Positions 1 to 42,291 of a stretch of DNA of 63,970 bases are shown here, one piece after another; the first letter of the stretch is position 1, and the number at the start of each line of letters is the position of its first letter. A model generated the notes under the pieces. It did not search any database and was not told the DNA's origin. It was given only the letters and a program-made list of their open reading frames with translations. The stretch is taken from NCBI GenBank assembly GCA_964347135.1, contig CAYFXA010000003.1:1-63970 (forward strand), written 5' to 3'. This stretch comes from an uncultured Gammaproteobacteria bacterium. GTDB lineage: Bacteria > Patescibacteriota > Microgenomatia > PFEM01 > JAHIFH01. The position numbers were made by a program, and so were the translations under genes.

Positions 1-140
1 TAAAAACTTGCCTCAGCCAAACCATCAGCATTGGTCACATCCCAAAACTCAACCACTAAATGCTTTTTAACTTTATTGCCTAGTTGCTTGGCAGCAGGGC
101 ATTGATAGCATCCTGGTTGAGTAAAAACCTTAAGAATCAT
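1..140 (-). CDS. glutaredoxin/NrdH-like thioredoxin-fold protein, N-terminal part only (continues past left edge)
   Basis: Not in the ORF track because it is open at the window edge. The reverse complement of 1-140 reads ATG(140-138) MILKVFTQPGCYQCPAAKQLGNKVKKHLVVEFWDVTNADGLAEASF. A CxxC (CYQC) directly after a short beta-strand-like N-terminus is the glutaredoxin/NrdH pattern. The start overlaps the nrdD stop by 11 nt. Confidence 0.6.
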   Translation of the reverse strand, partial: MILKVFTQPGCYQCPAAKQLGNKVKKHLVVEFWDVTNADGLAEASF

Positions 141-2235
141 CTAAGGCTCCCTTATTTTTATACCTCTCCCCTAATTCCTGAATTTTTCCTTTATTCCAGC
201 GGCTAGTTAAACTAAAAAACCCTGAAACCCGAGTCATGTGGTCAACATCCGAGCTTTTACAGGAAGGGCATTTTGCTTTCAGGCCGCGGGAAGTTTTTTT
301 GCAGGCTCCACACAAAGTGAATTCTGGAGAGAAGGCAATCAGCTGGCTTTGGGTATTTTCCCAGGTTTTTTTAACGAAATTGGCAATAGACTTTGTTGAA
401 GGATTTTGCTCCCCAATCCAAACATGGGTCATTGCTCCTGCATCAATTAAAGGATGAAAAAGCCCTTCGCGCGTCACTCTTTCAATTGGATCCATTGAAA
501 CACTCACATTCATCTGGCTCGAATTGGTGTAATAAACCGCTCCTGTTTTTTGATTACCTTGAACCACTCGCGGGGTCTGTTTTGGAAACCACTGCATGTC
601 CAACTTGGCTAATCGATAGGAAACACCCTCTGCTGGTGTTTGTTCAAGACAAACCCTAATCTTCAGCTTTTTACTTTGCTTTTTGGCATAAAGGTTCATA
701 AAAGAAATAACCCGCAAACCAAATTTCAAGGCTTCATCTGACTCGTGAAGCTCCTTGCCGGTATGGTGCTGAACCATTTCATTTAAAGCATAGATCGTGG
801 TTAATTCAACCGAGCGGTTAAATCGATAAAAAGGATAAGGATCACCTTTATGGCGAACGCATAAAGCCGCTAAAGGACCTCTGTTTCCCAAATCTAAAAT
901 CTTTTTTATGAATTTTCTCTTTTGTAAATGAGCCTGGCCAATCAAATCCATTCTTTTCTTAAGAAGAGAAAAGAGCTTGTTCTCATTACGATTTGCCTCA
1001 TAAGCAATTCTGGGAAGATTAACCGTTACCCAGCTGGTAGCGCTATGCCTCATTAACTCTGGTTTCTTAGTTTCTGCCAGGTCATGCTTATCTAATTTAA
1101 AAGAAAGCCGACAACATTGGGCAATTCTAACGCTACTTCCCCGGTCAAAAAAGAATTCGGTATTGCCTCTCTCGGCTGCCACTTTAGCCGCTAATTCCAA
1201 CAATTCCTCGTGGCCCGGAGTTTGCCAAAATTTTTCCGTCATATGAAAGTTTGGTTTTGGCCAAAAAAATGGCCTTCCAGAACCATCACCTTTAAGGTAT
1301 TCTTCAAATAAAGCAATCAAAAATCGCTGGCTTTCCTTTTCATAATCCCCATAGGTTTTACCAGTATATTTTCCACCAGGCCCCATTGCTGGTGTTTTTT
1401 GGTAATGAGGCGGCACTTCCCAGTAAAGATTAATATCTGAAAAAACTGGTTGGCTGCCTTTAGCCACGTTTTGGTTGTTAAACTCAAAAATCATCATCTG
1501 GGCGAGTTGTTTAATATCTTTGTCTGAGAGTCCTTTTAAAAATGGGGCAAGAAACATGTTGACTGCTTCATAGCCGATGGCACCAGAAAAATGAATTTGA
1601 AGCATTGCCGCAAATCTAATTAGCTGGAGAATAAAAACATCAGGGTGTTTGGCAGGCTTAGCAAGAGAAAATGAGGCCGGGGGAACTAAGCCATATTTTT
1701 TAACGTATTCAGGAGATTGCCCACTACAATAAGGGCGGTCAGGAAAATCAAGCTTGTGAAGATGAATATCTCCTTTAAGGTGGGCTTCAATAACTTTGGG
1801 TGAATGAACTTCACATAAAGCATAATCTTTTTTTATTTCCTGAGCCAAAGTAAGATTGGTTGTATCCGGTGTGTGGGGGTTGTTGGAACTCATTGCCTCA
1901 TCTTGAAGAAGCATGATATTGCCGACATCATAAAGAGGTACTCCCAAACGCTGGTATTTCTTGTGCTCCTGCTCCATCCCTCGACGAAGCAACTCTACAT
2001 TAACAAGCTCTCGAATTAAAGAAGCGGTTAGCGTCTCAAGTTTCATCCTTTTAATTTGGCGCTCAACCTTATTAGCCACATCTTGAGCTACCCTTTTTTT
2101 AATCCCCACTTCCCGAGTTAGAGATTTAACAATTGCCTTTTTGTTCCACTTGCCTAATTCATCCTCACTTGTTCTCACTCTTAAAGTCCGGTCGGCAATC
2201 TCGTCTTTTATTTTTTGAAGGTCAGATTTAATCAT
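130..2235 (-). CDS. nrdD: anaerobic ribonucleoside-triphosphate reductase (class III RNR)
   Basis: 701 aa. The C-terminal Cys4 ribbon (CGACKK...CPSCKS) is followed by the glycyl-radical motif TRVSGFF...WNKGK, as expected for NrdD. Confidence 0.9.
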   Translation of the reverse strand: MIKSDLQKIKDEIADRTLRVRTSEDELGKWNKKAIVKSLTREVGIKKRVAQDVANKVERQIKRMKLETLTASLIRELVNVELLRRGMEQEHKKYQRLGVPLYDVGNIMLLQDEAMSSNNPHTPDTTNLTLAQEIKKDYALCEVHSPKVIEAHLKGDIHLHKLDFPDRPYCSGQSPEYVKKYGLVPPASFSLAKPAKHPDVFILQLIRFAAMLQIHFSGAIGYEAVNMFLAPFLKGLSDKDIKQLAQMMIFEFNNQNVAKGSQPVFSDINLYWEVPPHYQKTPAMGPGGKYTGKTYGDYEKESQRFLIALFEEYLKGDGSGRPFFWPKPNFHMTEKFWQTPGHEELLELAAKVAAERGNTEFFFDRGSSVRIAQCCRLSFKLDKHDLAETKKPELMRHSATSWVTVNLPRIAYEANRNENKLFSLLKKRMDLIGQAHLQKRKFIKKILDLGNRGPLAALCVRHKGDPYPFYRFNRSVELTTIYALNEMVQHHTGKELHESDEALKFGLRVISFMNLYAKKQSKKLKIRVCLEQTPAEGVSYRLAKLDMQWFPKQTPRVVQGNQKTGAVYYTNSSQMNVSVSMDPIERVTREGLFHPLIDAGAMTHVWIGEQNPSTKSIANFVKKTWENTQSQLIAFSPEFTLCGACKKTSRGLKAKCPSCKSSDVDHMTRVSGFFSLTSRWNKGKIQELGERYKNKGALDDS

Positions 2236-6651: not shown

Positions 6652-8907
6652 ATGAAACAGGTTAAATCACGAATCTTGAGCTTCAAAAAAGCGATTGACC
6701 AAAGAATCAAAAGGCTGCCCATTAAAAGGAGCTACAAAAAATTCCTTTTGGCTAATTGGGCCTTGCTTCTTATCTTTCTCTTAATTGGTTTGTTTCTCTA
6801 TTTCTTTATTTTTAAAGATTTACCTTTGCCGACTCGACTGGGATCGGAAATTCCCGCCTCAACTCTAATTTTTGACCGTCAAAACAACCTTCTCTACGAA
6901 ATTTATACCGAAAAAAACCGGGTTCCTGTTAAGCTAGAAGAATTGCCTGAATATCTCAAGCATGCCACGATTGCCATTGAAGATAAAAACTTTTATAAGC
7001 ACCGAGGATTTGCTTTTGAAGGAATCATTCGAGCGGCCACGAAAATCGTTTTTAAAAGAAAACTTGAAGGCGGTTCAACCATTACCCAGCAGCTCGTTAA
7101 AACCGCCCTTCTCTCACCAGAGCGGACTATTCGGAGAAAAATTAGAGAAGCACTGCTTGCAATGTTCACCGAAATTATTTATTCCAAAGACCAAATTTTG
7201 GAAATGTATCTTAACCAAGTCCCTTATGGTGGAACAGCGTATGGAATAGAAACCGCTGCTCAAACTTATTTTAATAAAAACGCTAAAGATTTAAGCCTGG
7301 CGGAAGCAGCGCTTTTAGCTGGTTTACCCGCTGCTCCCACTCGTTACTCCCCTTTTGGCACCCATCCCGAGGCCGCCAAAAACAGACAAGAGCTGGTTCT
7401 TAAGAGAATGACTGAAGATGGCTATATTACTGAAGAAGAAAGAAAAGCCGCAGAGGAAGAGGAATTAAATTTTGCTCCTCCCACAGTTGGCATTAAAGCC
7501 CCTCATCTTGTTCTCTATATTAAAGAACTTTTGGTGGAAAAATATGGTGAACCTTTGGTTGAACAGGGAGGTCTAAAAGTCACTACCACCCTTGACTTGG
7601 ATATCCAAGAGCTCGCTCAAGAGGTAGTCGCCACCGAGGTAGCCGAATTAGAAGAAAGAAAGCTCAATATTCATAACGGAGCTGCCCTAGTCACTAATCC
7701 CAATACTGGAGAAATTTTAGCCATGGTGGGCTCCCATGACTATTTTGATGACGAACATGACGGCAAAGTCAACGTCACTCTTAGCCACCGCCAGCCAGGT
7801 TCAGCTATTAAACCAATTAACTACGCCCTTGGTTTAATGAAAGGAACAATCACTCCGGCCACGGTTATTAATGACGTTCCCACTTGTTTCTCTGTCCCTG
7901 GGCAAAAGCTATATTGTCCGGTTAACTATGACGGTCAATTCCATGGTCCGGCTCAAGCGCGCTTCGCTTTGGGCAGCTCTTACAATCTACCAGCAGTCAA
8001 AGTCTTGGCAATGAACGGTCTTGAAGATTTCATTGCCACTGCTTCGGCAATGGGTATTACCACTTTTAAAGACCCCTCTCAATACGGTCTCTCTCTTACT
8101 TTGGGTGGTGGTGAGGTAAGGATGATTGACATGGCCACGGCTTTTTCTGCTTTCTCTAATCTTGGTATTCGCCAAGATGTTTACGCAATTGAAAAAGTTG
8201 AAGACCGTTATGGGAAAGTTCTTTATCAAAAGGAGGAGCAAGAAGGAGAGCGAGTTCTGCCAATGGGAGTGGCTTATCTTATTTCCCATATTCTTTTGGA
8301 TAATAATGCTCGCTCGGCTGCTTTTGGCACCAGCTCTTATTTAGTTATTAGAAACCATCCTGAAGTTTCGGTTAAAACAGGGACGACTAATGACAAGCGG
8401 GACAACTGGACAATTGGTTTTACTCCTTCCCGCTTGGTAGCGGTTTGGGTGGGCAATAATGATAATGAACCCATGAGTTATGTTGCTTCGGGCATCACCG
8501 GTGCCTCGCCAATTTGGAACCAAATCATGAGTTATGTTCTAAAAGATATGGAACAAGAATGGCCAATGAAACCAGAGGAGGTCGTTGGTGCTCAAGTCTG
8601 TGCTTTATCAGGAAAAGCACCTAATCCCGAGTCACCTTGCGAAACCCGGTTTGAATATTTTCTTAAAGGAACGGTTCCATCTGAAACCGAAAGTCTCAAA
8701 GCTTTTCTTGAAATCGATAAAACCACTGGTCAAATCGCTACTGATAAAACACCGCCTGAAAACAAAGAAGTTCAAGAACATCCGGTTATCTTTGACCCCC
8801 TTGGTGTTCCCTATTGCCTTGATTGTCCCTTTCCTACTGAAAGGGTAATTATTAGTCCCTACGCTCCTTCGCCAATAATTCAAACTCCCCCTTCACCTCA
8901 GCCTTAA
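6652..8907 (+). CDS. bifunctional class A penicillin-binding protein (PBP1A, GT51 transglycosylase + transpeptidase)
   Basis: 751 aa. GT51 motifs are EDKNFYKHRGF and GGSTITQQL. Transpeptidase motifs are SAIKP (SxxK), SYN (SxN) and KTGTT. Confidence 0.9.
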   Translation: MKQVKSRILSFKKAIDQRIKRLPIKRSYKKFLLANWALLLIFLLIGLFLYFFIFKDLPLPTRLGSEIPASTLIFDRQNNLLYEIYTEKNRVPVKLEELPEYLKHATIAIEDKNFYKHRGFAFEGIIRAATKIVFKRKLEGGSTITQQLVKTALLSPERTIRRKIREALLAMFTEIIYSKDQILEMYLNQVPYGGTAYGIETAAQTYFNKNAKDLSLAEAALLAGLPAAPTRYSPFGTHPEAAKNRQELVLKRMTEDGYITEEERKAAEEEELNFAPPTVGIKAPHLVLYIKELLVEKYGEPLVEQGGLKVTTTLDLDIQELAQEVVATEVAELEERKLNIHNGAALVTNPNTGEILAMVGSHDYFDDEHDGKVNVTLSHRQPGSAIKPINYALGLMKGTITPATVINDVPTCFSVPGQKLYCPVNYDGQFHGPAQARFALGSSYNLPAVKVLAMNGLEDFIATASAMGITTFKDPSQYGLSLTLGGGEVRMIDMATAFSAFSNLGIRQDVYAIEKVEDRYGKVLYQKEEQEGERVLPMGVAYLISHILLDNNARSAAFGTSSYLVIRNHPEVSVKTGTTNDKRDNWTIGFTPSRLVAVWVGNNDNEPMSYVASGITGASPIWNQIMSYVLKDMEQEWPMKPEEVVGAQVCALSGKAPNPESPCETRFEYFLKGTVPSETESLKAFLEIDKTTGQIATDKTPPENKEVQEHPVIFDPLGVPYCLDCPFPTERVIISPYAPSPIIQTPPSPQP

Positions 8908-8929
8908 AAAAATGTAAAATAAGAAACTA

Positions 8930-11317
8930 ATGGCGGTACCGAGGACAGGCACCATTTATACCGCCAAGAAACTTCGGTTCAAGCGTTTATCTGCCTCGGG
9001 TTTTTTTGGCAAGATCAAAAAACCAAAAAACTTCTTTGGTTGGTTCGGTTTCATCCTTGAAATTGTTGGTCGTCCTTTCTTTTGGTTGCTTCTAACTTTT
9101 GCTTATCTTCTTTTTCTCCTTATTTCTTCAATTGGTCAACTTGTTTTTTCACTGATTAAGCAGATTGCCAAACTTCCTTATCAAGTCAAACCTTTTATCA
9201 AAACTCTCAACCAGTATCTTTCTAAATTAAAAGTCGCTCTTAAACCACCAAAAATCCGTTTACCAAAAATCAAACTACCCCGTCTCTATCTACCAAAGCC
9301 ATCGAAAAAATGGCTTGTTTTCTTCTTCGCTGCCACTTTCCTTTTCATCATGGCCGTTCTCTTTTTTGTTTATATTCTTAAAGACCTCCCCCATCCTGAA
9401 CGGCTCATCACTCGAGAACAAATCGTTTCCACTAAAATCTACGACCGTCACGGTAATCTTCTTTACAAAATCTATCGGAGTCAAAACCGAACCTTGGTTC
9501 CTTTAAGCGAAATTCCTCTTTCCCTAATTCAAGCAACGATTGCGATTGAGGACGCTGAATTTTATCGCCATTATGGCTTTTCTCCTAAGGGAATTGTTCG
9601 CTCTTTTCTTGCCAACCTTCGCTCAAAAAAGCTTTACGGAGGCTCAACCATTACCCAACAGTTGGTTAAAAATGCCCTTCTCACCCCAGAAAGAACCCTA
9701 AGACGAAAGGTAAAAGAAATCGTTCTTTCTCTTTGGGTAGAAGCTAAATTTTCTAAGGATGAAATTCTTCAAATGTATTTTAACGAAGTCGGCTACGGTG
9801 GAGCAGCCTATGGTGCCGAAGAAGCAGCTCAAATGTACTTTGGTAAATCGGTTAAAGAGCTTGATATTGCCGAATCAGCCCTGTTAGCAGGCTTACCTGC
9901 TTCACCAACGACTTTCTCCCCTTTTGGTGCTCACCCGGAAATGGCTAAATCTCGCCAACTAATTGTTCTTAAAAGAATGAAACAAGAGGGTTTTATTACT
10001 AAAGAAGAATATGAACAAGCTCGGGAACAAGAATTAAAATTCGCTCCCCAAAAAACCGATATCAAAGCCCCTCATTTTGTTATGTATGTTAAAGAGTTAT
10101 TGGTGGAAGAATACGGTTTGAGACAAGTTGAAGAAGGTGGTTTAGAAGTAACTACTTCACTTGATTTAGAGATTCAGAATAAAACCCAAGAATTAGTTAG
10201 CAATGAAGTAAAAAAGCTTTGGCGGCTCCACATTACCAATGGCGCGGCTTTGGTAACCAATCCCCAGAATGGAGAAATTTTAGCCATGGTTGGCTCCCGC
10301 GATTATTTCGATTTAGAAAATGATGGGAACGTCAATGTGACTCTTAGACCTCGACAACCAGGTTCATCCATCAAGCCAGTCAATTATTCTATTGCTTTGG
10401 AAAATGGCTTCACTCCAGCAACAATTATTCCCGACACTCCCATTACTTATCAAACACCAGGCCAACCTCCTTACTCACCCAAAAATTATGACAACCGCTT
10501 CCATGGTAATATTCCTCTCCGGGTTGCTCTTGCTTCTTCCTATAATGTTCCAGCGGTTAAAGTCCTTTCCGCCTTTGGCGTTGATAGAATGGTAAAACGA
10601 GGACAGGAAATGGGAATCACCACTTGGGAAAACCCCTCAAGATTTGGCCTTTCTTTAACTCTGGGTGGGGGCGAGGTAAAAATGGTTGATATGGCAGTTG
10701 TTTACGGCACTCTTGTTAATATGGGCATGCGAGTTGATCTTCAGCCTATTCTCAAAGTCAAGAACTATAAAGGAGAGGTTCTCAAGCAAGATTTAAGACG
10801 ACAAGATACTGAAACCAAAAGAGTTTTTTCTCCCCAAATTGCCTATCTTCTCACCAGTATTCTCTCGGACGAGGCTGCTCGAACACCCGCTTTTGGGGCT
10901 AATTCAATCCTCAATATTCCTGACCATTCCCATGTGGCTGTTAAAACCGGCACCACCCAAAATATGAGGGACAACTGGACAATTGGTTTCACCCAAGACT
11001 ATCTCGTCGCCGTCTGGGTAGGCAACAACGACAACACCCCGATGAGCTATGTTGCTTCAGGCATCACCGGTGCTTCACCTATTTGGAACCAAATCATGAC
11101 CCACCTCCTCAAAGACATCCCTGACAAAGAATTCCCCAAACCAGAAGAATTAAAACAAGTAGAAATCTGCTCCTTAACCGGCACCCTTCCCTGCGAAGGC
11201 TGCGGCGGCAAGCAAGAATTTTTCCTTCCCGGCACAGAACCCAAAGTCCACTGTCATCCAGAAAAAATAAAAGAAATTAGAGAGAGAAAAGAAAAGCCTA
11301 CCCTTGACTCCCAATGA
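8930..11317 (+). CDS. bifunctional class A penicillin-binding protein, tandem paralog with a long N-terminal extension
   Basis: 795 aa. Motifs are EDAEFYRHYGF, GGSTITQQL, SSIKP, SYN and KTGTT. It is collinear with the upstream PBP. About 140 aa of basic, hydrophobic extension precede the TM helix. Confidence 0.9.
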   Translation: MAVPRTGTIYTAKKLRFKRLSASGFFGKIKKPKNFFGWFGFILEIVGRPFFWLLLTFAYLLFLLISSIGQLVFSLIKQIAKLPYQVKPFIKTLNQYLSKLKVALKPPKIRLPKIKLPRLYLPKPSKKWLVFFFAATFLFIMAVLFFVYILKDLPHPERLITREQIVSTKIYDRHGNLLYKIYRSQNRTLVPLSEIPLSLIQATIAIEDAEFYRHYGFSPKGIVRSFLANLRSKKLYGGSTITQQLVKNALLTPERTLRRKVKEIVLSLWVEAKFSKDEILQMYFNEVGYGGAAYGAEEAAQMYFGKSVKELDIAESALLAGLPASPTTFSPFGAHPEMAKSRQLIVLKRMKQEGFITKEEYEQAREQELKFAPQKTDIKAPHFVMYVKELLVEEYGLRQVEEGGLEVTTSLDLEIQNKTQELVSNEVKKLWRLHITNGAALVTNPQNGEILAMVGSRDYFDLENDGNVNVTLRPRQPGSSIKPVNYSIALENGFTPATIIPDTPITYQTPGQPPYSPKNYDNRFHGNIPLRVALASSYNVPAVKVLSAFGVDRMVKRGQEMGITTWENPSRFGLSLTLGGGEVKMVDMAVVYGTLVNMGMRVDLQPILKVKNYKGEVLKQDLRRQDTETKRVFSPQIAYLLTSILSDEAARTPAFGANSILNIPDHSHVAVKTGTTQNMRDNWTIGFTQDYLVAVWVGNNDNTPMSYVASGITGASPIWNQIMTHLLKDIPDKEFPKPEELKQVEICSLTGTLPCEGCGGKQEFFLPGTEPKVHCHPEKIKEIRERKEKPTLDSQ

Positions 11318-12199: not shown

Positions 12200-13114
12200 T
12201 TACTCATTCTCAATCTCAAAATCCCACACTGCCTGGGCAATCTGGGGAACCACTTCCAAAGCCTCCTTCTCCCGGGCATCCTTGGTCATAATTACCAAGA
12301 CAAAAGGTTCTTCAGCAAAAATAATGCCTGCATCAGAATAAACTCCATCTAAAGTGCCAATTTTGTGCGCCACTCGAATCCCTTCAGGCACACCCTGGGG
12401 GAGGCGGTCTTCAAAATTAGTTTTGGTCAAAAAACGAAGTAACTCATCACAATGTTCCTGATTAATCAGTTCTCCTTTATAAAGCTTTCTAAAGAGTTCA
12501 CCCACCTCCTCTGGGGTCATTTGCTCAACCAAAATTTCTCCAACTAATTGACGCATCACTTTAAAAGCAGTGTTATCTGAATAATGAGCCATGTACTCAA
12601 TTAACTGGCGATAACTATATTTGGTTCCTGCTGATTTAGAGTAAAGAATTCCCGCCCCTTGAACCTTGTCTGCTTCTTTAAGCGCGTATTCTGTTTCTAA
12701 ATCTAGTTTGTCTTGTTCAGCTTGCTGATAGGCAGCTATCATCACTGGCAATTTATTTAAAGAAGCAGCAGGAAAAACTTTCTTTTCATTTAAACCATAA
12801 TCCTTTCCATCTTCAAGCCGGTAAACATAAACTCCATAGGTGCCAGAAAGATCCTGAGTCAATGCCTTAATCTGCTCTACAACTGGATCGGGATCAAAAT
12901 ATTTCTCAGGCAAACGGGAAATAATTCTTGGAGCCGTAATTCTTTCCCAAATCTTTGGGACTTCTGCCTGAAGATAAAAAAGCGTGCTTGCTAAAACGGT
13001 AATCACAAACAAAGCAATAACTGCCTTTCGGCCATCTCCACGCCTATCCTTTTTTTCCCTTTTTTTTACTGGCTTGACGCCGGGAAAGTGTTGTTGTTCA
13101 GCCTTTAAAACCAT
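12200..13114 (-). CDS. class A beta-lactamase-like serine hydrolase, membrane anchored
   Basis: 304 aa. Motifs are ASLNKLP (SxxK), YSDNTA (SDN) and HKIGT (KxG), with an N-terminal TM helix. Confidence 0.75.
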   Translation of the reverse strand: MVLKAEQQHFPGVKPVKKREKKDRRGDGRKAVIALFVITVLASTLFYLQAEVPKIWERITAPRIISRLPEKYFDPDPVVEQIKALTQDLSGTYGVYVYRLEDGKDYGLNEKKVFPAASLNKLPVMIAAYQQAEQDKLDLETEYALKEADKVQGAGILYSKSAGTKYSYRQLIEYMAHYSDNTAFKVMRQLVGEILVEQMTPEEVGELFRKLYKGELINQEHCDELLRFLTKTNFEDRLPQGVPEGIRVAHKIGTLDGVYSDAGIIFAEEPFVLVIMTKDAREKEALEVVPQIAQAVWDFEIENE

Positions 13115-13115
13115 G

Positions 13116-13478
13116 TCAACAAGTAGTGTGAATTAGAACATTAACTCGTTTGCCTTGCTTAACCAAATCATTGTAACGCTTAACCACTTTAGGAGTAAGA
13201 ACGGTTTGCAATTCGATTTCTTTTTCTTTTAGATTATCCTTAAAATCATCATCAATTCTAACAAGCCCACTCCAACCCGTGGCAATAAGAATCACCTCGG
13301 GATTACCAGAAATCAACTTTTCCTTTTCCCAATCCCCGATTCGGTGAGTCGTGCCAAAAAGCTCGTGTAACTTATCACTTTTTCTTTCAATTACCTCATT
13401 ACCAACAATCAAAACCTGATGATAATCTCTGTCATCAACCTTGACTTTCCCCCAAGAAACTTTATCTATTTTAGGCAT
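13116..13478 (-). CDS. Mth938-domain protein (DUF498/NDUFAF3-like)
   Basis: 120 aa. WGKVKVDDRDYHQVLIV...PEVILIATGWSG...LIHTTC is collinear with the archaeal Mth938 family as I remember it. Confidence 0.7.
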   Translation of the reverse strand: MPKIDKVSWGKVKVDDRDYHQVLIVGNEVIERKSDKLHELFGTTHRIGDWEKEKLISGNPEVILIATGWSGLVRIDDDFKDNLKEKEIELQTVLTPKVVKRYNDLVKQGKRVNVLIHTTC

Positions 13479-13545
13479 AAAAATAGACCTATATCTTTAA
13501 CTTTAAACCTAATTTAAGTATAATATATTCACCAAAAGAAATAAA

Positions 13546-14322
13546 ATGATAGTAGAAAGACCGAAAAAAAAGGTTGAATATTTAAAAAGAAAATTCTTCA
13601 CAACAGAAGACTTGCTTGAACAAGAAGAGCCTGACGAAATCGCCCAAAGATTCTATATCGAAGAATTTCAAATTGAGCCTTTAATTTCCTTTTTCGAATT
13701 CCGATCGGATGAACGTCCCCGAGTAACTTTAGGCTATGGGGGTGGCTCAAATATTAATTTTTATCCTATCAGATACGAAAATTGGGAAGATCTCCACACC
13801 AAATTGAAAATGCACGGGGCTCAACACGTTTACTATGAAAAAAGATTTATTCGTTCGATCGAAGAAGATGAAGTTACTTCTGAAGACGATCTTCTGGCAT
13901 TATCATTAGCCCATGAAATTGTTTTTGATTTAGATCCAGAAAATTATGATTGTCAAAATTGTGGGCCAGCAGTTGACCGTGATTTAGAAACTTTTTGCCC
14001 AGATTGTTTTGTAAACTCATTAAATGACACAATAAAACTTTTTGAATTCTTGGAGAAATTGAAATTCAATAACATCATTCCCGTAAGCACGGGAAGAGGG
14101 TTTCATGTTCACGTTCAAGATGAAAGTACTCTTTCTTGGAGCAAAGAACAAAGAGCAGCCCTAGTATCCCAGGTTCAAGAAAAAGGAATAGCAATAGACC
14201 CTCATGTTACTGTTGAAATGTATCTCATGAGAATGCCCTACTCTTTACACGGAGGAGTAAACAAGCAAGTTGTGCCCCTTACTTTATCTGAGCTTAAATC
14301 TCTTTCTCAACAGGACAAGTAG
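13546..14322 (+). CDS. archaeo-eukaryotic primase (AEP) superfamily protein, PriS-like
   Basis: 258 aa. Motif I is VFDLDPENYD (DxD). A Cys4 knuckle follows (CQNCG...CPDC). Motif II is STGRGFHVHV (SGxGxH). Motif III region is IAIDPHVTVEMYLMRMPYSLHGG (compare D..VT.D..RL.R.P.SLH.K in PriS). Confidence 0.65.
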   Translation: MIVERPKKKVEYLKRKFFTTEDLLEQEEPDEIAQRFYIEEFQIEPLISFFEFRSDERPRVTLGYGGGSNINFYPIRYENWEDLHTKLKMHGAQHVYYEKRFIRSIEEDEVTSEDDLLALSLAHEIVFDLDPENYDCQNCGPAVDRDLETFCPDCFVNSLNDTIKLFEFLEKLKFNNIIPVSTGRGFHVHVQDESTLSWSKEQRAALVSQVQEKGIAIDPHVTVEMYLMRMPYSLHGGVNKQVVPLTLSELKSLSQQDK

Positions 14323-14917
14323 CTACACAAGTAATTCCACATCCTTTACCCAAAATTTTCCTTCTCTCTTTACACTTCCAACGATTAAACCTTCTGTTAA
14401 TCGCTTTGGTAGGGCAATTTGTTTTACAAATGCCACATTGATTACAAAGTTCTTTTTTAAAAGGAGTATCGTGCTTAAACAAGCAATTAGTCAAAACCAC
14501 GCCAATCACTGTTCCAGGTCCCAGTTTAGGATGAAGCAACATTTGATTCTGACCGATACTGCCTAAACCTGCCAAAACAGCTAATTGCCGAAAAGAAATC
14601 ACTCCCACCAAACTCTTTCTATTATATAAATTCTCGGAGATACCCATTCCCCCAAAACCTTTTTTTTCTAAAAAATTAATCAACTTTTTATTAGTCTTAC
14701 TGAGATGATTGTTAAGACTAACAATATACCAAGGGCCATATTGATCTCTTAATTTTTTGAGTTTAAAAAGATAAACAATGGCGGTTTTTGTTTCTGGGAA
14801 GATATTTTTCGGAGTCGAGCCACCAGGGATTTTTTTATATTTTACAACATCCGCAAAGCCAACATCATCCATTCCCAATTTCCTTAAAAAATTTACCATT
14901 TCCTGTCTTAGGCTCAT
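14294..14917 (-). CDS. 4Fe-4S cluster protein, epoxyqueuosine reductase (QueG)/reductive-dehalogenase-like
   Basis: 207 aa. It has the ferredoxin motif CNQCGICKTNCP plus a second Cys cluster (CGITCVATCP). Its 3' end overlaps the convergent AEP gene by 29 nt. Confidence 0.5.
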   Translation of the reverse strand: MSLRQEMVNFLRKLGMDDVGFADVVKYKKIPGGSTPKNIFPETKTAIVYLFKLKKLRDQYGPWYIVSLNNHLSKTNKKLINFLEKKGFGGMGISENLYNRKSLVGVISFRQLAVLAGLGSIGQNQMLLHPKLGPGTVIGVVLTNCLFKHDTPFKKELCNQCGICKTNCPTKAINRRFNRWKCKERRKILGKGCGITCVATCPVEKEI

Positions 14918-14925: not shown

Positions 14926-15771
14926 CTATTTAAACTTGGCTGAATGGCCAACGGCGAAATAGATTGTTACTGGTATTTTGTCTTTCTTAGATAATTTTCT
15001 TATCTTTTTTGCCGCCTGGGTGTAAAACTCATCAAATTTCTTTTTATCAAACATAGTCCGGTGCATTTTCAAAAATAATTTGGGGTAGTGCTTTCTCAGG
15101 ACATCCGCTACGCCTGTCCAATTCCCGCCAATGGTGTTAAAACTTTCGGTAAAAACGTGGTTGACGCCAACCTTTTTAAATTCTTTAAAAAGTGCCTCTG
15201 GATTGGTAAAAATTGGCCAATAAGGACCCATCATCGCCAAAACAGTTATCCCTTCATCTGTCAATTTTTTCATTGCCCGCAAGCGACTTTTTACTGTCGG
15301 AGAGGCTGGTTCAACTAGCTTTTTCCATTTTTCATCAAGGGTAGTAATAGTAAAATTGACATCCACTTTTTTAAGTTGCTTCAGTAAGTCAATGTCTCTG
15401 AGAACCATGTCAGATTTAGTCATGATGCTTATTGGGCTCTGATAGTTCACTAGAACTCTCAATATTGCTTCTGTGAGTCTATATTTCCTTTCAAGCGGCT
15501 GATAGGGATCAGTAACGGTGCTAATATAAATTCTTTGCCCTTTATACTTTGGCGAACGCAATTGTTTTTCAAGAACTTGAACGATGTTCATTTTGACATC
15601 AACAAAAGTGCCCCATTCTTCAGTATGACCTGTAAATCGTTTCATAAAACGGGCGTAACAATAACGACAGCCATGTCCACAGCCAATATAGGGATTGATA
15701 CAAAAACCACCACCAGGAAATCCACATTTACCAATGGCAGATTTACAAAGAATTTCCTGAACTTTTATCAT
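14926..15771 (-). CDS. radical SAM protein (SPL/DNA-photolyase-like family)
   Basis: CGHGCRYCYARF is a CxxxCxxC motif. The track start (15813) is a TTG. I prefer the ATG at 15771 (MIKVQEIL), which has TAATAT 7 nt upstream. Confidence 0.8.
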   Translation of the reverse strand: MIKVQEILCKSAIGKCGFPGGGFCINPYIGCGHGCRYCYARFMKRFTGHTEEWGTFVDVKMNIVQVLEKQLRSPKYKGQRIYISTVTDPYQPLERKYRLTEAILRVLVNYQSPISIMTKSDMVLRDIDLLKQLKKVDVNFTITTLDEKWKKLVEPASPTVKSRLRAMKKLTDEGITVLAMMGPYWPIFTNPEALFKEFKKVGVNHVFTESFNTIGGNWTGVADVLRKHYPKLFLKMHRTMFDKKKFDEFYTQAAKKIRKLSKKDKIPVTIYFAVGHSAKFK

Positions 15772-15864
15772 TAAAAATATATTAACATATTTTCGGGTTT
15801 TGTTCAGGAGCAACTTTAAGAGGTTTTTTAAGGAAATTTCGGGTAACAGAAGTGAACAAAACGC

Positions 15865-37838: not shown

Positions 37839-37854
37839 ACTATAGGATACATTG

Positions 37855-37926
37855 CTCCGCGGGTAGGATTCGAACCTACAACCAACTGCTTAACAGGCAG
37901 CCGCTCTACCATTGAGCTACCGCGGA
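37855..37926 (-). tRNA. tRNA-Asn (anticodon GTT)
   Basis: Hand-folded as TCCGCGG-TA-GCTC..GAGC-G-GCTGC CTGTTAA GCAGT-TGGTT-GTAGG TTCGAAT CCTAC-CCGCGGA-G. CCA is not encoded. Confidence 0.93.
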
Positions 37927-37958: not shown

Positions 37959-39047
37959 TTATTCTAGATAATCCTGGAGTTTTTTTCTTCTTGAAGGATG
38001 CTTAAGTTTTCTCAATGCTTTAGCCTCAATCTGCCTAATTCTTTCCCGAGTAACGCCAAATTCCTTGCCTACTTCTTCCAAAGTCATCGGTTGGTAACCA
38101 TCCAAACCAAATCTCATTTTAAGAACTCTGGCTTCTCGGTCCGACAAACTCTCCAAAACTTCCTCAATGTTTTCCTTTAAGAGCTGCTTTGATGCTTGGT
38201 CAACTGGCGAGGGCTGAGTCTCATCTGGAATAAAGTCTCCTAAAAGAGAGTCTTCTTCATCACCAACAGGTTTTTCCAAAGAAGTCGTGTCTTGAGCAAT
38301 TTTGAAAATTTCTCTAACTCGATCGGGGTCAAGTTCCATCTCCTTACCAATTTCCTCAGCCGTTGGTTCTCTGCCTAGTTGCTGGGCTAGTTTCCTTGAA
38401 GTCCGAATGAGCTTGTTAATCGTTTCCACCATGTGAACCGGAATCCTGATAGTTCTTGCCTGGTCAGCAATGGCTCGAGTAATTGCCTGCCTTATCCACC
38501 AGGTGGCGTAGGTAGAGAATTTATAACCTCTGCGCCAATCATATTTTTCCACTGCCCGCATTAATCCCTGATTACCCTCTTGAATCAAATCCAAAAAACT
38601 CATTCCCCGACCCGCATATTTTTTGGCAATGGAAACAACTAGTCTCAAATTAGACTGAATCAGTCTCTTTTTCGCGGCTCGACTGCCTTTTTCCACTCCT
38701 TGGGCAAGGTCAATCTCTTGTTCAGCGGTTAGCAAAGGAATCCTGCCAATTTCTTTCAGATACATTCGGACCGGGTCAGTTAGGGTTTTGTCTTCTAAAG
38801 TTGCTAAAACCTCAAGCTCTTTAGCCAATTCCGTTGTTGCCTTCTCATCCTCAGCCATTTCCTCTTCGGTCACGGATTCAAAAACATCCACGCCTTCGGC
38901 TAAAAACTTAGTATAAAGGTCATCTAATTCCTCAACCCTTTCCTCCGCATCGGGAAAAAGCTTAAGAATCTCCTCTTGGGTAATAAAACCCTGTTTTTTT
39001 CCTTTATCAATAATTTTGTTGATATTAATTTTCTTCTTTTTTGCCAT
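37959..39047 (-). CDS. rpoD: RNA polymerase primary sigma factor (sigma-70)
   Basis: 362 aa. Region 2 is [27 protein letters not shown]. Region 4 is [26 protein letters not shown]. Confidence 0.95.
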
Positions 39048-39071
39048 CTTTATTTCTCTACCAATATTATA

Positions 39072-40871
39072 CTACGTCTCAAGTTCAGAGAGCTCAACAG
39101 ATAAATCTCGAAACTGTTCGTGCAATTTCTTTAACTTCTCTTTTTCCCTTTTGGTTGGCTTTTCCACTTTTTCCAACTCACCTATTTGATTACCAATTTC
39201 TTTAAGCGCTTCTCTTAAGTTTAACCTCCTTAAGTCTCGTTTTGTTCTAAGGAGTTCTTTTCTGAACTTTTCTTCACTTTCAATTAAATCAGCTATCTCT
39301 AATAAATAAAGCTTGTCAAAAGCTTCTTTTAATTCAGCTGGCAGCATTTTGGCAAGGCGCTGGCTATCAAGGGTTTTGTAACGCTTAAAATATTTGCCTA
39401 AAGCCTCAACAATATTTTGAAAGCGTGGTGTTTTAATCAGTTTTTGAACTTCTTTTTTCCTTAACATTTGCCAATTTTCTGATTGAAAAGCCAGAGCTAA
39501 GAGGTGCTCTTCCAAAACCTCTCTTCGACTCATTTTTTCAACTTTCTCGTAATCCTTTCTTTCTAAGGGTGTCTTGGCACTTTCTTCACTAATAAACTTA
39601 GCTACTTCAGCTGCGACTGCTTCCTCTTCAACCCGAAGTTTGTCAGCCAATTGACGCACGTAATGAGCCTGAACAACCTTATTACTAATCTTGGCAAGAA
39701 TTGGGGTTAATTCTAAACTAATCTTCCGCTTGCCATCAATGGTTCGGGCATCAAACCGAGAAAAAGCCGAATCAAGAAAATAATCATAAATGGGCACGGC
39801 TTGTTTAACCTGCTGGCGCCAAAGCTTGGGTGTTTTCTGAGCAACTTCATCAGGATCTTTGCCTCCTTTTACCTCAATCACATTAATCGCCATGCCCGCA
39901 GCATCAGCCAGTTCAATCCCTCTTCGCGCTGCCTGGTCACCAGCAACATCCTGGTCCAAAGCTAAAATAATATTTTGGGTAAAGCGACTTAACAAATCGA
40001 CTTGACCTTGAGTTAAGGCTGTGCCCTTAAGAGCAACCACATTACCCACCCCTGCCTGAATCGAAGAAATAGCATCCAATTCTCCCTCAACAACAATGGC
40101 TCGGTCAGCTTTTTTAATTGCTTTTTTAGTTTCCACCAAGCCATAAAGCAAATCAGACTTATGATAAACCAAGGTTTCTGGGGTATTAATGTATTTAGCT
40201 TCTTCCTGCTTAGGATCAAGAGTCCTTCCAGCAAAACCAACAACATTATTCCGACGGTCGCGCAAAGTAAACATCAGGCGACCCCGAAAACGATCATAAT
40301 AACCCCGCCTTTTCTCACTCTTAATCACCAACCCCGCCCTTTCCAAATCTTCTTTTCTGTATCTTTTTTTCTTAACCAAATAATCTTGCAAAGCTTCCCA
40401 TAAATTAGGCGAGTAACCAAGTTTAAAGTTTGCTAAAGATTCCCGACTGATCCCCCGCCCAAGAATATAATTAAGGGCTTTTCTGCCAACCGGATGTTTG
40501 GTTAAAAGATAATGGTAATACTCACTAGCTAAATGATTAATCTCATAAAGGCGTTGTTTTTGCCTCTCGCTTTCAGAAGGCCGATAGCGCCGAAGTTTAA
40601 TACCAGCCCGTTTAGCTAAGGTTTGTAAAGCCTCGCCAAACTCCATGTTTTCCGTGAGCATGGTGAACTTAAAAATATCGCCACCCTCCCCACAGCCAAA
40701 GCACTTAAAAATCTGGCGTTCGGGAGAAACAATAAAAGAAGGAATTTTCTCGGAATGAAAGGGACAAAGAGCCTTGAAATTACGCCCGGTTTTCTTTAGA
40801 GGAACGGATTCATTAATCAATTCAACGATATCAATCTTTCGTCTGATTTCTTCTAATCGGTCTTCGGCCAT
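39072..40871 (-). CDS. dnaG: DNA primase DnaG
   Basis: 599 aa. The CHC2 zinc finger is CPFHSEKIPSF..CFGCGEGGD and the Toprim motif is VVEGELD. It sits directly upstream of rpoD, the classical order. Confidence 0.95.
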   Translation of the reverse strand: MAEDRLEEIRRKIDIVELINESVPLKKTGRNFKALCPFHSEKIPSFIVSPERQIFKCFGCGEGGDIFKFTMLTENMEFGEALQTLAKRAGIKLRRYRPSESERQKQRLYEINHLASEYYHYLLTKHPVGRKALNYILGRGISRESLANFKLGYSPNLWEALQDYLVKKKRYRKEDLERAGLVIKSEKRRGYYDRFRGRLMFTLRDRRNNVVGFAGRTLDPKQEEAKYINTPETLVYHKSDLLYGLVETKKAIKKADRAIVVEGELDAISSIQAGVGNVVALKGTALTQGQVDLLSRFTQNIILALDQDVAGDQAARRGIELADAAGMAINVIEVKGGKDPDEVAQKTPKLWRQQVKQAVPIYDYFLDSAFSRFDARTIDGKRKISLELTPILAKISNKVVQAHYVRQLADKLRVEEEAVAAEVAKFISEESAKTPLERKDYEKVEKMSRREVLEEHLLALAFQSENWQMLRKKEVQKLIKTPRFQNIVEALGKYFKRYKTLDSQRLAKMLPAELKEAFDKLYLLEIADLIESEEKFRKELLRTKRDLRRLNLREALKEIGNQIGELEKVEKPTKREKEKLKKLHEQFRDLSVELSELET

Positions 40872-41638: not shown

Positions 41639-41645
41639 TTCTTAG

Positions 41646-41732
41646 CGGAGAGGGTGGGATTCGAACCCACGATAGCCTTTCGACTATACACGCTTTCCAA
41701 GCGTGGGCATTAAACCACTCTGCCACCTCTCC
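41646..41732 (-). tRNA. tRNA-Ser (anticodon GGA)
   Basis: GGAGAGG...CACGC TTGGAAA GCGTG, a long variable arm, then GTGGG TTCGAAT CCCAC CCTCTCC G. Confidence 0.9.
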
Positions 41733-42211
41733 TAAAATAACTTTTGTTGTTTTTCTGTTTCCTCTAAAATCCCTTTTGCCTTTTTTAAGGCTTTCTTTTC
41801 TGAATCAAAAGTTAACCGTTCGTAAGCCTCTTTAAAAGAAAGCCATTTAATTGCCGCGATTTTTTCCGCGTCTTCCTTTTTCTTTCCCTTCCCCTGATAT
41901 TCCATTAAAAATAAGGCAATTGTTTTAAAAATTCTGTTTTTGTTTTCGTCGTAGAAAAAGACTCTTAGGCTATCAACCTTTTCAACGACGTTTGCCTTGA
42001 TTCCTGTTTCTTCTTCTACTTCCCTTTTTGCTGTTTCTGTTGATTGCTCTCCTTCCTCAACCCAACCCTTGGGAAATTGCCAACGACCTTTACTCCAATG
42101 TCCGCCTCCTTCTGGTTGAATAATTAACCATAGAATTTCACCATTCTCCTTTTTAAAAACCACCCCACCAGCAGAATATTCCTTTTTAACTGGCTTTTTC
42201 TTTTTAGCCAT
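41732..42211 (-). CDS. NUDIX hydrolase
   Basis: Start moved to the ATG at 42211 (MAKKKKPVKKEY), because the 20 upstream codons of the track ORF are the reverse image of tRNA-Arg. The Nudix box is GWVEEGEQSTETAKREVEEETG. Confidence 0.85.
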   Translation of the reverse strand: MAKKKKPVKKEYSAGGVVFKKENGEILWLIIQPEGGGHWSKGRWQFPKGWVEEGEQSTETAKREVEEETGIKANVVEKVDSLRVFFYDENKNRIFKTIALFLMEYQGKGKKKEDAEKIAAIKWLSFKEAYERLTFDSEKKALKKAKGILEETEKQQKLF

Positions 42212-42212
42212 G

Positions 42213-42285: not shown

Positions 42286-42291
42286 TCAGGG

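What the first reader, a model, noticed from the sequence alone, without database searches (positions are those of the whole stretch)
13546..14322. Archaeo-eukaryotic (PriS-like) primase gene in a bacterium that also encodes DnaG
The 258-aa ORF shows the three AEP catalytic motifs in the right order, with a Cys4 knuckle between motifs I and II:
- motif I: VFDLDPENYD
- Cys4 knuckle: CQNCG...CPDC
- motif II: STGRGFHVHV
- motif III region: IAIDPHVTVEMYLMRMPYSLHGG

This is the layout of archaeal and eukaryotic PriS. A canonical dnaG-rpoD pair sits at 37959-40871. The AEP gene is not flanked by phage, plasmid or NHEJ (Ku/LigD) genes. It lies between an Mth938-domain gene and Fe-S/radical-SAM genes, and its own -10 (TATAAT at 13519-13524) suggests independent expression. 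One residue of the usual D..VT.D motif is Glu here. No PriL-like partner is visible.
Basis: partly seen in the sequence, partly recalled or inferred. Interest (0 to 1): 0.65.

Follow-up and report, generated by a model that had tools for sequence, protein, structure and literature searches.

The report
Compact archaeal-type primase in a CPR bacterium
A Patescibacteria (CPR) bacterium with the normal bacterial primase DnaG also carries an intact, unusually small archaeal-type primase gene; it came from archaea next to a QueG-like iron-sulfur reductase and is probably an accessory repair or nucleic-acid-processing enzyme, not a second replication primase.

Summary
ORF 13546-14322 encodes a 258-aa protein that passes the Pfam DNA_primase_S cut-off. 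It aligns to Pyrococcus PriS, including the zinc knuckle. Its AlphaFold model (pLDDT 86) matches archaeal PriS and human Pri1 better than LigD-Pol or viral AEPs.

The catalytic triad is complete: D128, D130 and D218.

The protein belongs to a compact (~255-280 aa) PriS-paralogue family that I did not find described in the literature searched. The family is common in Bathyarchaeia, Archaeoglobi, Thermoplasmatota and DPANN. One Bathyarchaeon contig carries it together with a canonical 409-aa PriS.

The window copy sits in a small subclade marked by a Cys4 knuckle and a 'TGRG' motif II. In 5 of 5 subclade lineages with readable context, the gene lies within two genes of a truncated QueG-like corrinoid/Fe-S reductase. 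In the non-CPR members a B12-radical-SAM gene is also present. The partner was seen at none of about 160 other family loci. The "Fe-S" neighbour at 14294-14917 is therefore a conserved partner.

A syntenic CPR relative lacks the primase gene, so it is dispensable. I infer an accessory primase-polymerase used in DNA damage tolerance or nucleic-acid processing. This role is untested.

The parts
13546..14322 (+). Compact PriS-type AEP gene ('mini-PriS'), 258 aa
   Evidence: ORF. Pfam PF01896 at 43 bits. PDB PriS hits. AF2 pLDDT 86 with Foldseek top hits PriS/Pri1. Family of at least 326 distinct members.
13546..13620 (+). Basic N-terminal extension (res 1-25, 'KKVEYLKRKFF'), low model confidence
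   Evidence: Similar to the separate 45-aa ORF 'KRVEYLKRKHL' upstream of the sister-cluster gene in L087/L088. In the CPR copies it appears fused to the primase. pLDDT is below 60.
13921..13950 (+). AEP motif I (VFDLDPENYD); metal ligands D128 (13927-13929) and D130 (13933-13935)
   Evidence: Aligns to P. furiosus D95/D97. D128 and D130 are each present in 323 of 326 members.
13951..14007 (+). Cys4 zinc knuckle (C136, C139, C151, C154)
   Evidence: Sits at the same place as the Pyrococcus PriS knuckle. Most of the family has C-H-C-E here; Cys4 marks the subclade.
14086..14115 (+). Motif II (STGRGFHVHV); R184 and H187 are the inferred nucleotide-triphosphate contacts
   Evidence: G183 is present in 325, R184 in 322 and H187 in 319 of 326 members. 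T182 is a subclade marker.
14188..14256 (+). Motif III region. Catalytic D218 (14197-14199); variable E224; R229 and H235, which with H187 give the archaeal 'HRH' signature
   Evidence: D218 aligns to Pfu D280. D218 is present in 320/326 and R229 in 321/326. Position 224 is E in 158, G in 81 and D in 30 members. The HRH signature is described in PMC5862659.
13497..13524 (+). Promoter-like site TTAACT-16-TATAAT, 21 nt upstream of the ATG
   Evidence: Best-scoring site in the region (10/12). The regional count is not above shuffles.
14294..14917 (-). Truncated QueG/reductive-dehalogenase-type corrinoid Fe-S reductase ('mini-QueG'), 207 aa. Convergent with mini-PriS; the 3' ends overlap by 29 nt
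   Evidence: NCBIfam QueG and RDH partial hits. The family profile hits PceA and QueG in the PDB. The AF2 model (pLDDT 88) best matches QueG 5t8y/5d0a at TMq 0.75-0.77. It lies next to mini-PriS in the window, L082, L087-89, L096 and L180.
14926..15813 (-). Radical SAM protein related to NCBIfam's 'mobile pair protein B', PA0069 and Rv2578c families. An independent gene call starts at 15771
   Evidence: Pfam Radical_SAM. TIGR04470 224 bits and NF033668 177 bits, both below cut-off. It forms a co-directional pair with mini-QueG in CPR relatives L082 and L090.
13116..13478 (-). DUF498/Mth938-domain gene; conserved CPR neighbour of the mini-QueG region
   Evidence: Pfam PF04430. The same gene follows mini-QueG in L090 and L093 with different inserts in between.
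39072..40871 (-). Canonical bacterial primase DnaG (context: the replicative primase is present)
   Evidence: Pfam Zn_ribbon_DnaG, DNAG_N, Toprim and DnaB_bind.

Best explanation
The ORF encodes a catalytically intact, single-domain, PriS-type archaeo-eukaryotic primase.

**Shown**
- It keeps the PriS catalytic core and the zinc knuckle. At 258 aa against about 345 aa for Pyrococcus PriS, it lacks roughly 90 residues, most of them between motif II and motif III. From published PriS structures I take the missing parts to be the helical subdomain and the C-terminal domain (inference).
- It belongs to a compact PriS-paralogue family that is widespread in archaea and separate from replicative PriS.
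- The CPR copy belongs to a subclade whose members are linked to a truncated QueG-like corrinoid/Fe-S reductase. In the non-CPR members a B12-radical-SAM enzyme, and sometimes a MutT-like NUDIX, are linked too.
- It is accessory: one syntenic CPR relative lacks it, and DnaG is present.

**Inferred**
- The gene pair moved from archaea into bacteria and was already present in the common ancestor of a small Patescibacteria group.
- The enzyme binds two metal ions through D128, D130 and D218. It holds the incoming (d)NTP through R184, H187, R229 and H235, and synthesises short RNA or DNA on a single-stranded template without PriL.
- It acts as a stand-alone primase-polymerase for damage tolerance or gap filling, or for another specialised nucleic-acid transaction coupled to the radical-SAM and QueG-like enzymes. 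It is not the chromosomal replication primase.

**Confidence:** identity, intact active site and horizontal origin about 0.9; non-replicative accessory role about 0.75; repair or damage-tolerance role specifically about 0.4.
For: - **Identity:** Pfam PF01896 above cut-off. PriS is the best NCBIfam and PDB match. The AF2 model has pLDDT 86 and pTM 0.86. Foldseek gives PriS/Pri1 at E 1e-10 and TMq 0.69, against LigD-Pol/Prim-PolC at E 4e-6 to 2e-5 and viral AEPs at E 3e-7 or weaker.
- **Active site:** D128/D130/D218 align to Pfu D95/D97/D280 and are present in 320-323 of 326 members.
- **Separate family:** an exhaustive HMMER search gave 59 clusters (at 50% identity) at E<1e-30, mostly 230-290 aa apart from fragments. 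Canonical 330-420 aa PriS proteins appear only from about E 1e-17. Bootstrap support for the split is 100%. The Bathyarchaeon contig L074 carries both a 260-aa member and a 409-aa canonical PriS.
- **Archaeal distribution:** 286 relatives in GTDB genomes, and the top 80 are almost all archaea. Named members include Archaeoglobus veneficus and Geoglobus ahangari.
- **Bacterial host, not an assembly artefact:** establish the host. The same protein occurs on 4 contigs from NCBI and Logan assemblies. GC and GC3 lie within the window's range.
- **Partner:** mini-QueG is adjacent in the window, L082, L087-89, L096 and L180. It was found at none of about 160 other loci. The upstream B12-rSAM is orthologous between L088, L096 and L180 at 39-58% identity.
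- **Dispensable:** L090/L091 share the glycolysis-rSAM-miniQueG-DUF498-bla synteny but have an AAA_18 kinase gene where the window has mini-PriS. L090 is closer to PriS-bearing L082 (mini-QueG 84% identical) than either is to the window.
- **Repair flavour:** a MutT-like NUDIX sits in the Theionarchaea operon. EndoIII, SOD, rubrerythrin, peroxiredoxin and glutaredoxin surround the gene in about 35 of 80 loci, mostly Bathyarchaeia.
Against: - There is no biochemical or expression evidence. Only DNA metagenome runs hold the sequence.
- The oxidative-stress context is confined to one Bathyarchaeia lineage. Other archaeal contexts are housekeeping or variable.
- In the window the partner genes are on the opposite strand, so co-transcription is excluded there.
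- mini-QueG also occurs without mini-PriS, beside other nucleotide enzymes: NDK, NTP_transf_2, NTP_transf_6, HAD and AAA_18. This fits a nucleotide-modification pathway as well as repair.
- The primase evolves faster than its neighbours (53% identity between the window and L082, against 72% and 89%), which suggests weak constraint.
- Canonical PriS depends on PriL for efficient initiation. No PriL-like or helix-bundle domain was found. About 30 of the roughly 55 window genes were scanned, and the rest of the genome was not available.
Confidence: 0.6

Rival explanations
1. The mini-PriS is a nucleotidyltransferase in a nucleotide or nucleic-acid modification pathway, working with the QueG-like reductase and a radical-SAM enzyme. 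It might make, install or polymerise a modified nucleotide rather than repair DNA.
For: - The mini-PriS/mini-QueG pair is conserved in 5 of 5 subclade lineages. A B12-rSAM sits upstream in the three non-CPR lineages.
- QueG is a nucleobase-modifying enzyme, and the partner's model matches it best.
- Where mini-QueG lacks mini-PriS, it sits beside other nucleotidyltransferases or nucleotide enzymes: NTP_transf_2 with NDK, NTP_transf_6 with HAD, and AAA_18.
Against: - No known pathway of this composition turned up in the literature searches.
- The bulk of the family (about 160 loci) has no QueG-like neighbour.
- The active site is that of a templated polymerase.
- The genes are convergent, not co-transcribed, in the CPR genomes.
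Confidence: 0.25
2. It is a second replicative primase that primes the CPR chromosome alongside or instead of DnaG.
For: It is PriS-like with an intact active site. One archaeal locus (L048) has it next to an intein-containing MCM.
Against: - A full-length DnaG with a DnaB-binding domain is present.
- The gene is missing from a close syntenic relative.
- No PriL was seen.
- In archaea the family is a paralogue that coexists with canonical PriS.
- It scores far below the PriS equivalog cut-offs.
Confidence: 0.04
3. It is a remnant or cargo of a phage, plasmid or integrative element: an MGE replication primase.
For: - Bacterial AEPs are typically MGE-borne (PMC5862659).
- The slot between mini-QueG and DUF498 is variable, holding AAA_18 in L090 and a PhdYeFM/PIN toxin-antitoxin pair in L093.
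- The adjacent radical SAM protein's best NCBIfam hit is 'mobile pair protein B', although below cut-off.
Against: - No integrase, helicase, capsid or relaxase gene lies nearby, and the flanks are glycolysis and cell-wall genes.
- There are no significant PHROG or PADLOC hits.
- Viral fold matches are weaker than cellular PriS.
- Composition is ameliorated.
- It is a single-gene difference within conserved synteny.
Confidence: 0.06
4. It is an NHEJ-type repair polymerase equivalent to the LigD polymerase domain.
For: There is a weak LigD_Prim-Pol match (16.7 bits) and structural similarity to M. tuberculosis LigD-Pol.
Against: - LigD scores are far below cut-offs: 16.7 against 27.4, and 17 against 214.7.
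- PriS fold matches are about 4-5 orders of magnitude better in E-value.
- No Ku or ligase was found in the scanned part of the window or in related loci.
Confidence: 0.05

Closest known systems
Archaeal PriS (Pyrococcus furiosus/horikoshii/abyssi; PDB 1g71, 1v33, 9f26)
   Same: It has the AEP catalytic fold. Motifs I, II and III align residue for residue (D128/D130/D218 to Pfu D95/D97/D280). A zinc knuckle follows motif I. It carries the archaeal-type 'HRH' nucleotide-binding signature. PriS is the best sequence and fold match.
   Different: It is about 90-100 residues shorter: by inference it lacks the helical subdomain between motifs II and III and the C-terminal domain. It scores far below the PriS equivalog cut-offs. 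It forms a separate clade (100% bootstrap). It coexists with canonical PriS on one archaeal contig. No PriL partner is evident. Here it is in a bacterium.
Eukaryotic PrimPol and other stand-alone primase-polymerases
   Same: The proposed mode of action is the same: a single-subunit AEP with a zinc element that works outside the replisome for damage tolerance. This comparison rests on established knowledge, not on a test made here.
   Different: It belongs to a different AEP clade. Its zinc knuckle is internal, not a C-terminal UL52-type finger. No activity data exist.
Bacterial LigD polymerase domain / Prim-PolC
   Same: These are also AEP-clade members in bacteria, stand-alone and used in repair. 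Fold similarity is detectable (E 4e-6 to 2e-5).
   Different: The similarity is much weaker than to PriS. There is no Ku or ligase context, and LigD lacks the zinc knuckle.
Baculovirus LEF-1 and the Nanoarchaeum equitans monomeric primase (compact PriS-like enzymes)
   Same: They show that small or single-chain PriS-like primases exist. LEF-1 (229-280 aa) is among the viral fold matches. NEQ primase is described in PMC10250227 (abstract).
   Different: From established knowledge, not tested here: LEF-1 works with LEF-2. NEQ primase includes a PriL-like domain in the same chain, and no such domain is present here.
QueG epoxyqueuosine reductase (for the partner gene)
   Same: By fold, the partner has the corrinoid-binding core and the Fe-S domain, with its cysteines conserved across the family.
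   Different: It has 207 aa against about 375-440 aa and lacks the C-terminal tRNA-binding domain. It scores 46.6 bits against a cut-off of 200 for QueG. Its substrate is unknown.

Membership tests
AEP superfamily (Pfam PF01896 DNA_primase_S) | Profile match above the curated cut-off | tested here: met
   43.1 bits against a cut-off of 26.8, E 7.4e-11.
AEP superfamily | Three catalytic motifs in order: DxD, sGxGxH, and the motif III Asp | tested here: met
   D128/D130, G183-R184-G185-x-H187 and D218 are present. They align to Pfu D95/D97/D280 and are conserved in 319-325 of 326 members.
AEP superfamily | AEP catalytic fold | tested here: met
   The AF2 model has pLDDT 86. The top 42 Foldseek PDB hits are all PriS/Pri1 chains.
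Replicative PriS (orthologue of the archaeal/eukaryotic primase small subunit) | Score above the NCBIfam/TIGRFAM PriS equivalog cut-offs | tested here: not met
   NF001639 scores 41.8 against 577, TIGR00335 35.3 against 143.5, and NF001641 34.3 against 326.
Replicative PriS | Full PriS architecture (catalytic domain plus the inserted subdomain and C-terminal domain) | tested here: not met
   The protein has 258 aa. Motif II to motif III spans about 30 residues, against about 100 or more in Pyrococcus (query 208-217 corresponds to chain about 172-279). TMt is only 0.5 because the target is longer.
Replicative PriS | Zinc knuckle after motif I | tested here: met
   C136/C139/C151/C154 align with the Pyrococcus C-H-C-C knuckle region.
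Replicative PriS | Heterodimer with PriL (Fe-S large subunit) | not testable with these tools
   No PriL-like gene was found among the roughly 30 window genes scanned or next to family members in about 165 loci. The rest of the genome was not available.
Replicative PriS | Groups with canonical PriS in phylogeny | tested here: not met
   The compact family is separated from canonical PriS in 100 of 100 neighbour-joining bootstraps. Both types occur on contig L074.
LigD polymerase domain (NHEJ) | Profile match above cut-off and Ku/ligase context | tested here: not met
   PF21686 scores 16.7 against 27.4 and TIGR02778 17 against 214.7. No Ku or ligase was seen.
MGE/phage AEP primases (PrimPol-helicase fusions, PolpTN2-like) | Fused or adjacent helicase or PriL-like domain, in a mobile-element context | tested here: not met
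   It is a single-domain protein. No PHROG hit scored better than E 0.1. The flanks are chromosomal.
Known anti-phage defence systems (PADLOC) | Match to a defence-system protein model | tested here: not met
   There are no hits for mini-PriS and only marginal hits for its neighbours.

The most novel reading that the evidence does not exclude
mini-PriS, the truncated QueG-like corrinoid reductase and a radical-SAM enzyme (B12-dependent in the non-CPR members), with an optional MutT-like NUDIX and a small basic peptide, form a previously unrecognised nucleic-acid repair or base-modification system. It arose in archaea from a duplicated replicative primase and crossed into bacteria. In this system an AEP polymerase works directly with radical/corrinoid chemistry on damaged or modified bases.
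Probability: 0.2. Interest if true: 0.85.

Novelty: new variant of a known kind. Interest (0 to 1): 0.6.

Why it matters
Bacterial AEPs described so far are mainly LigD-type, PrimPol-type or carried on mobile elements. This is a member of the PriS branch itself sitting in a bacterial chromosome beside DnaG, which documents a cross-domain transfer of a core archaeal replication-derived enzyme into the CPR.

The finding also exposes a large compact PriS-paralogue family in archaea. Databases annotate it simply as 'DNA primase (small subunit)', and I found no paper describing it. Genome surveys may therefore be over-counting or mis-assigning replicative primases.

The conserved pairing with a mini-QueG and radical-SAM enzymes gives a concrete, testable lead to a new role for an AEP. 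Cultured carriers (Archaeoglobus veneficus, Geoglobus ahangari) make the wider family experimentally reachable. Whether they belong to the QueG-linked subclade was not checked.

Tried and rejected
- **Assembly chimera or archaeal contamination:** rejected. The same protein occurs on four contigs from independent assemblies. Bacterial genes flank it on both sides. GC is 0.368 and GC3 0.30, within the window's spread. A 53%-identical orthologue has the same neighbours in a related CPR contig.
- **Glu224 as a degenerate catalytic residue:** rejected. The catalytic Asp is D218, and position 224 is variable across the family.
- **Oxidative-stress neighbourhood as a family-wide signal:** only partly usable. 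It holds for one Bathyarchaeia lineage (about 35 of 80 loci) and not elsewhere.
- **Closer CPR relatives:** It added no closer relative.
- **Expression:** no RNA runs contain the locus.
- **Taxonomic names for the sister cluster (L087/L088):** none were available. A bacterial host was inferred only from a bacterial-type AspRS fragment on the contig.
- **Literature:** seven full-text searches found no description of a compact PriS paralogue, of PriS in CPR, or of an AEP/QueG-like association. Subscription-only papers were not searched.
- **Defence-system and phage-family searches:** negative.
- **dN/dS:** not attempted, because the only orthologue is too divergent (53% amino-acid identity).
Full report
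**1. Observation**

TATAAT lies at 13519-13524 inside the best sigma-70-like site of the region, TTAACT-16-TATAAT. Such sites are not enriched over shuffled sequence, so this is weak evidence.

The window is bacterial:
- two class A penicillin-binding proteins and a class A beta-lactamase-like gene;
- tmRNA and seven tRNA genes;
- a full DnaG (CHC2 finger, Toprim, DnaB-binding domain) at 39072-40871;
- RpoD at 37959-39047.

Members of the RpoD 90%-identity cluster are named Patescibacteria. The same protein is recorded on four contigs from NCBI and Logan assemblies. Its base composition matches the rest of the window. A misassembly is therefore unlikely.

**2. What the protein is**

| Test | Result |
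|---|---|
| Pfam DNA_primase_S | 43.1 bits (cut-off 26.8) |
| NCBIfam best hits | PriS models, 34-42 bits against cut-offs of 143-577 |
| PDB sequence search | Pyrococcus PriS, E 2e-6 to 4e-5, across motif I, zinc knuckle and motif II |
| AlphaFold model (114-sequence alignment) | pLDDT 86, pTM 0.86 |
| Foldseek, PDB | P. abyssi/horikoshii/furiosus PriS and human Pri1, E about 1e-10, TMq 0.69 |
| Foldseek, LigD-Pol / Prim-PolC | E 4e-6 to 2e-5 |
| Foldseek, viral AEPs | E 3e-7 or weaker |

In the HMMER alignment D128/D130 match Pfu D95/D97, and 'IDPHVTVE' matches Pfu 'FDGRVTVD', so D218 matches D280. By established knowledge these are the catalytic carboxylates of Pfu primase. The triad is therefore intact.

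By contrast D128, D130, D218, R184, H187 and R229 are each present in 319-323 of 326. H187/R229/H235 form the 'HRH' combination that Kazlauskas et al. report for archaeal PriS (PMC5862659).

Compared with Pyrococcus PriS the protein lacks roughly 90 residues, most of them between motifs II and III. From published PriS structures I take these to be the helical subdomain and the C-terminal domain.

**3. The family**

- A word-indexed search with the single protein found only six relatives.
- An exhaustive profile search found 59 clusters (at 50% identity) at E<1e-30, mostly 230-290 aa apart from fragments. Canonical 330-420 aa PriS proteins appear only from about E 1e-17.
- A scan of GTDB species genomes found 286 relatives. 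The best 80 are nearly all archaeal: mostly Bathyarchaeia, with Woesearchaeota, Nanohaloarchaeota, Archaeoglobi, Methanobacteriota and an Asgard MAG. Each gene encodes 250-280 aa.
- A profile search of the 5.8-billion-protein set listed named members from Archaeoglobus veneficus, Geoglobus ahangari, Thermoplasmatota and Bathyarchaeia. All are annotated 'DNA primase (small subunit)'.
- Contig L074 (Bathyarchaeia) carries both a 260-aa member and a 409-aa canonical PriS, so the compact protein is a paralogue there.
- In a neighbour-joining tree the compact family is separated from canonical PriS in 100 of 100 bootstraps.
- Seven literature searches found no description of this family.

**4. Where the CPR copy comes from**

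The window protein pairs with P0002 (53% identity, 100% bootstrap). P0002 comes from short contigs with the same Fer4 and radical-SAM neighbours.

Their sister group (96% bootstrap) is the P0025 cluster, represented by loci L085 and L087-L089 at 54% GC. Its contig carries a bacterial-type AspRS (aspS_bact 299-340 bits, against 58-68 bits for the archaeal type), so that host is probably also a bacterium.

A Cys4 knuckle plus 'TGRG' in motif II marks a small subclade. It also contains a Theionarchaea MAG (L096) and P0023 (L180). The rest of the family is archaeal and the family derives from PriS. Transfer from archaea to bacteria is therefore the parsimonious direction.

**5. The conserved partner**

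The 207-aa 'Fe-S' gene at 14294-14917 (-) is a truncated member of the QueG/reductive-dehalogenase family:
- partial NCBIfam hits to QueG and RDH;
- family-profile hits to PceA and QueG in the PDB;
- an AlphaFold model (pLDDT 88) that best matches B. subtilis QueG at TMq 0.75-0.77, without QueG's C-terminal tRNA-binding domain.

Homologues 48-72% identical lie next to mini-PriS in every subclade lineage for which context could be read:

| Locus | Gene order |
|---|---|
| Window, L082 (CPR) | mini-PriS convergent with mini-QueG |
| L087-89 (P0025 cluster) | B12-rSAM, 45-aa ORF, mini-PriS, mini-QueG, 271-aa unknown, B12-rSAM |
| L096 (Theionarchaea) | 53-aa ORF, B12-rSAM, mini-PriS, MutT-like NUDIX, mini-QueG; tightly packed |
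| L180 (P0023) | 53-aa ORF, B12-rSAM, mini-PriS, NUDIX remnants, RDH-like fragment, mini-QueG |

The upstream B12-rSAM is orthologous among L088, L096 and L180 (39-58% identity). None of about 160 loci of the main archaeal family has a QueG-like gene.

The 45-aa ORF of L087/88 ('KRVEYLKRKHL') resembles the first 25 residues of the window protein ('KKVEYLKRKFF'). That peptide therefore appears to be fused to the primase in the CPR copies.

**6. The gene is accessory**

CPR contigs L090/L091 share the window's gene order: TIM, PGK, GAPDH, DeoC, FBA, PfkB, radical SAM, mini-QueG, DUF498, beta-lactamase. They carry an AAA_18 kinase gene where the window has mini-PriS. L093 has a toxin-antitoxin pair at that spot.

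| Pair compared | mini-QueG | mini-PriS | Radical SAM |
|---|---|---|---|
| L082 / L090 | 84% | absent from L090 | 89% |
| Window / L082 | 72% | 53% | 89% |
| Window / L090 | 70% | absent from L090 | 87% |

(All values.) The simplest history is presence in the common ancestor and loss in L090. The primase is the fastest-evolving gene of the block.

**7. Function**

Shown:
- an intact PriS-type active site;
- a stand-alone single-domain architecture;
- coexistence with DnaG;
- dispensability among close relatives;
- a conserved link to a corrinoid/Fe-S reductase, and to radical-SAM enzymes of one type or another.

Inferred: templated (d)NTP polymerisation without PriL, used outside chromosomal priming.

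I favour a damage-tolerance or repair primase-polymerase, for three reasons:
- a MutT-like NUDIX sits in the Theionarchaea operon;
- EndoIII and ROS-defence genes flank the gene in one Bathyarchaeia lineage;
- the CPR radical-SAM neighbour is related to NCBIfam's PA0069 and Rv2578c families; from my own knowledge, not tested here, these belong to the group annotated as spore-photoproduct-lyase-like DNA-repair enzymes.

A nucleotide or nucleic-acid modification pathway is a serious rival. mini-QueG alone also sits beside unrelated nucleotidyltransferases and nucleotide kinases or phosphatases.

These readings are poorly supported:
- **Replicative primase:** DnaG is present and the gene is dispensable.
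- **MGE remnant:** no mobile-element genes, and no PHROG or PADLOC hits.
- **NHEJ polymerase:** no Ku or ligase seen, and LigD scores lie far below cut-off.

**8. Verdict**

The protein is best filed as a member of an apparently undescribed compact PriS-paralogue family, not as PriS proper. What is new is the family itself, its mini-QueG/radical-SAM association and its presence in bacteria. All functional statements remain inference.

Noticed in passing
window 14294-14322: The 3' ends of mini-PriS (+) and mini-QueG (-) overlap by 29 nt, convergently. In the CPR relative L082 the overlap is 4 nt. Convergent transcription could couple their expression.
   Followed up: partly
L087 1045-1182; L088 2977-3114; L096 5120-5281; L180 2116-2277: Small, highly charged ORFs (45-53 aa) accompany the B12-rSAM/mini-PriS operon. 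The L096 and L180 peptides are 61% identical over 28 aa. The L087 peptide resembles the N-terminal tail of the CPR primase. Their role is unknown; a nucleic-acid-binding tail or a radical-SAM substrate peptide are possibilities.
   Followed up: partly
Archaeal family members, C-terminus (alignments A2, A3): Most archaeal members end with a conserved 'R.IP.FL' motif (near-invariant P and F) that the CPR copies lack. It may be a docking peptide for an archaeal partner.
   Followed up: no
L074 13968-14222: An 84-aa fragment similar to mini-PriS (E 3e-30) lies about 3 kb downstream of the full-length copy in a Bathyarchaeon. It is probably a duplicated remnant.
   Followed up: no
L048 4267-9813: An 1848-aa MCM helicase, apparently with inserted intein/homing-endonuclease segments, lies immediately upstream of, and divergent from, a mini-PriS gene in an uncultured archaeon.
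   Followed up: no
L008 and L051: A Nanohaloarchaeota contig and one labelled Asgard (Asbonarchaeaceae) share the same neighbours around mini-PriS: SerRS, DHBP synthase, TyrRS and an ABC1 kinase. One of the taxonomic labels may be wrong.
   Followed up: no
L054, L060, L075: Three contigs carrying typical Bathyarchaeia-type mini-PriS are labelled Acidobacteriota (Acidoferrum, Sulfotelmatobacter) or Krumholzibacteriaceae in soil MAG sets. They are probably mis-binned archaeal contigs.
   Followed up: no
window 41645-44350: A dense RNA gene cluster: four tRNA-Ser, two tRNA-Arg and a tmRNA (tag GNKNVAPLYAVA). A tRNA-Asn lies just downstream of rpoD at 37854-37926.
   Followed up: partly
window 54199-58874 and 59071-60735: Three large ORFs (1031, 516 and 554 aa) have no Pfam match. 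The next gene (60768-61841) has a PrgI-family domain, which hints at a type IV secretion or conjugation-like locus.
   Followed up: no
window 130-2235; 6652-11317; 12200-13114: The window also holds an anaerobic ribonucleotide reductase (NrdD), two tandem class A PBPs and a class A beta-lactamase-like protein. The last scores below NCBIfam cut-offs and is not a called resistance gene.
   Followed up: partly
L088 1134-1427: A 97-aa ORF is made of tandem 'PQYRFSPVQNHFSM'-like repeats, upstream of the B12-rSAM gene.
   Followed up: no
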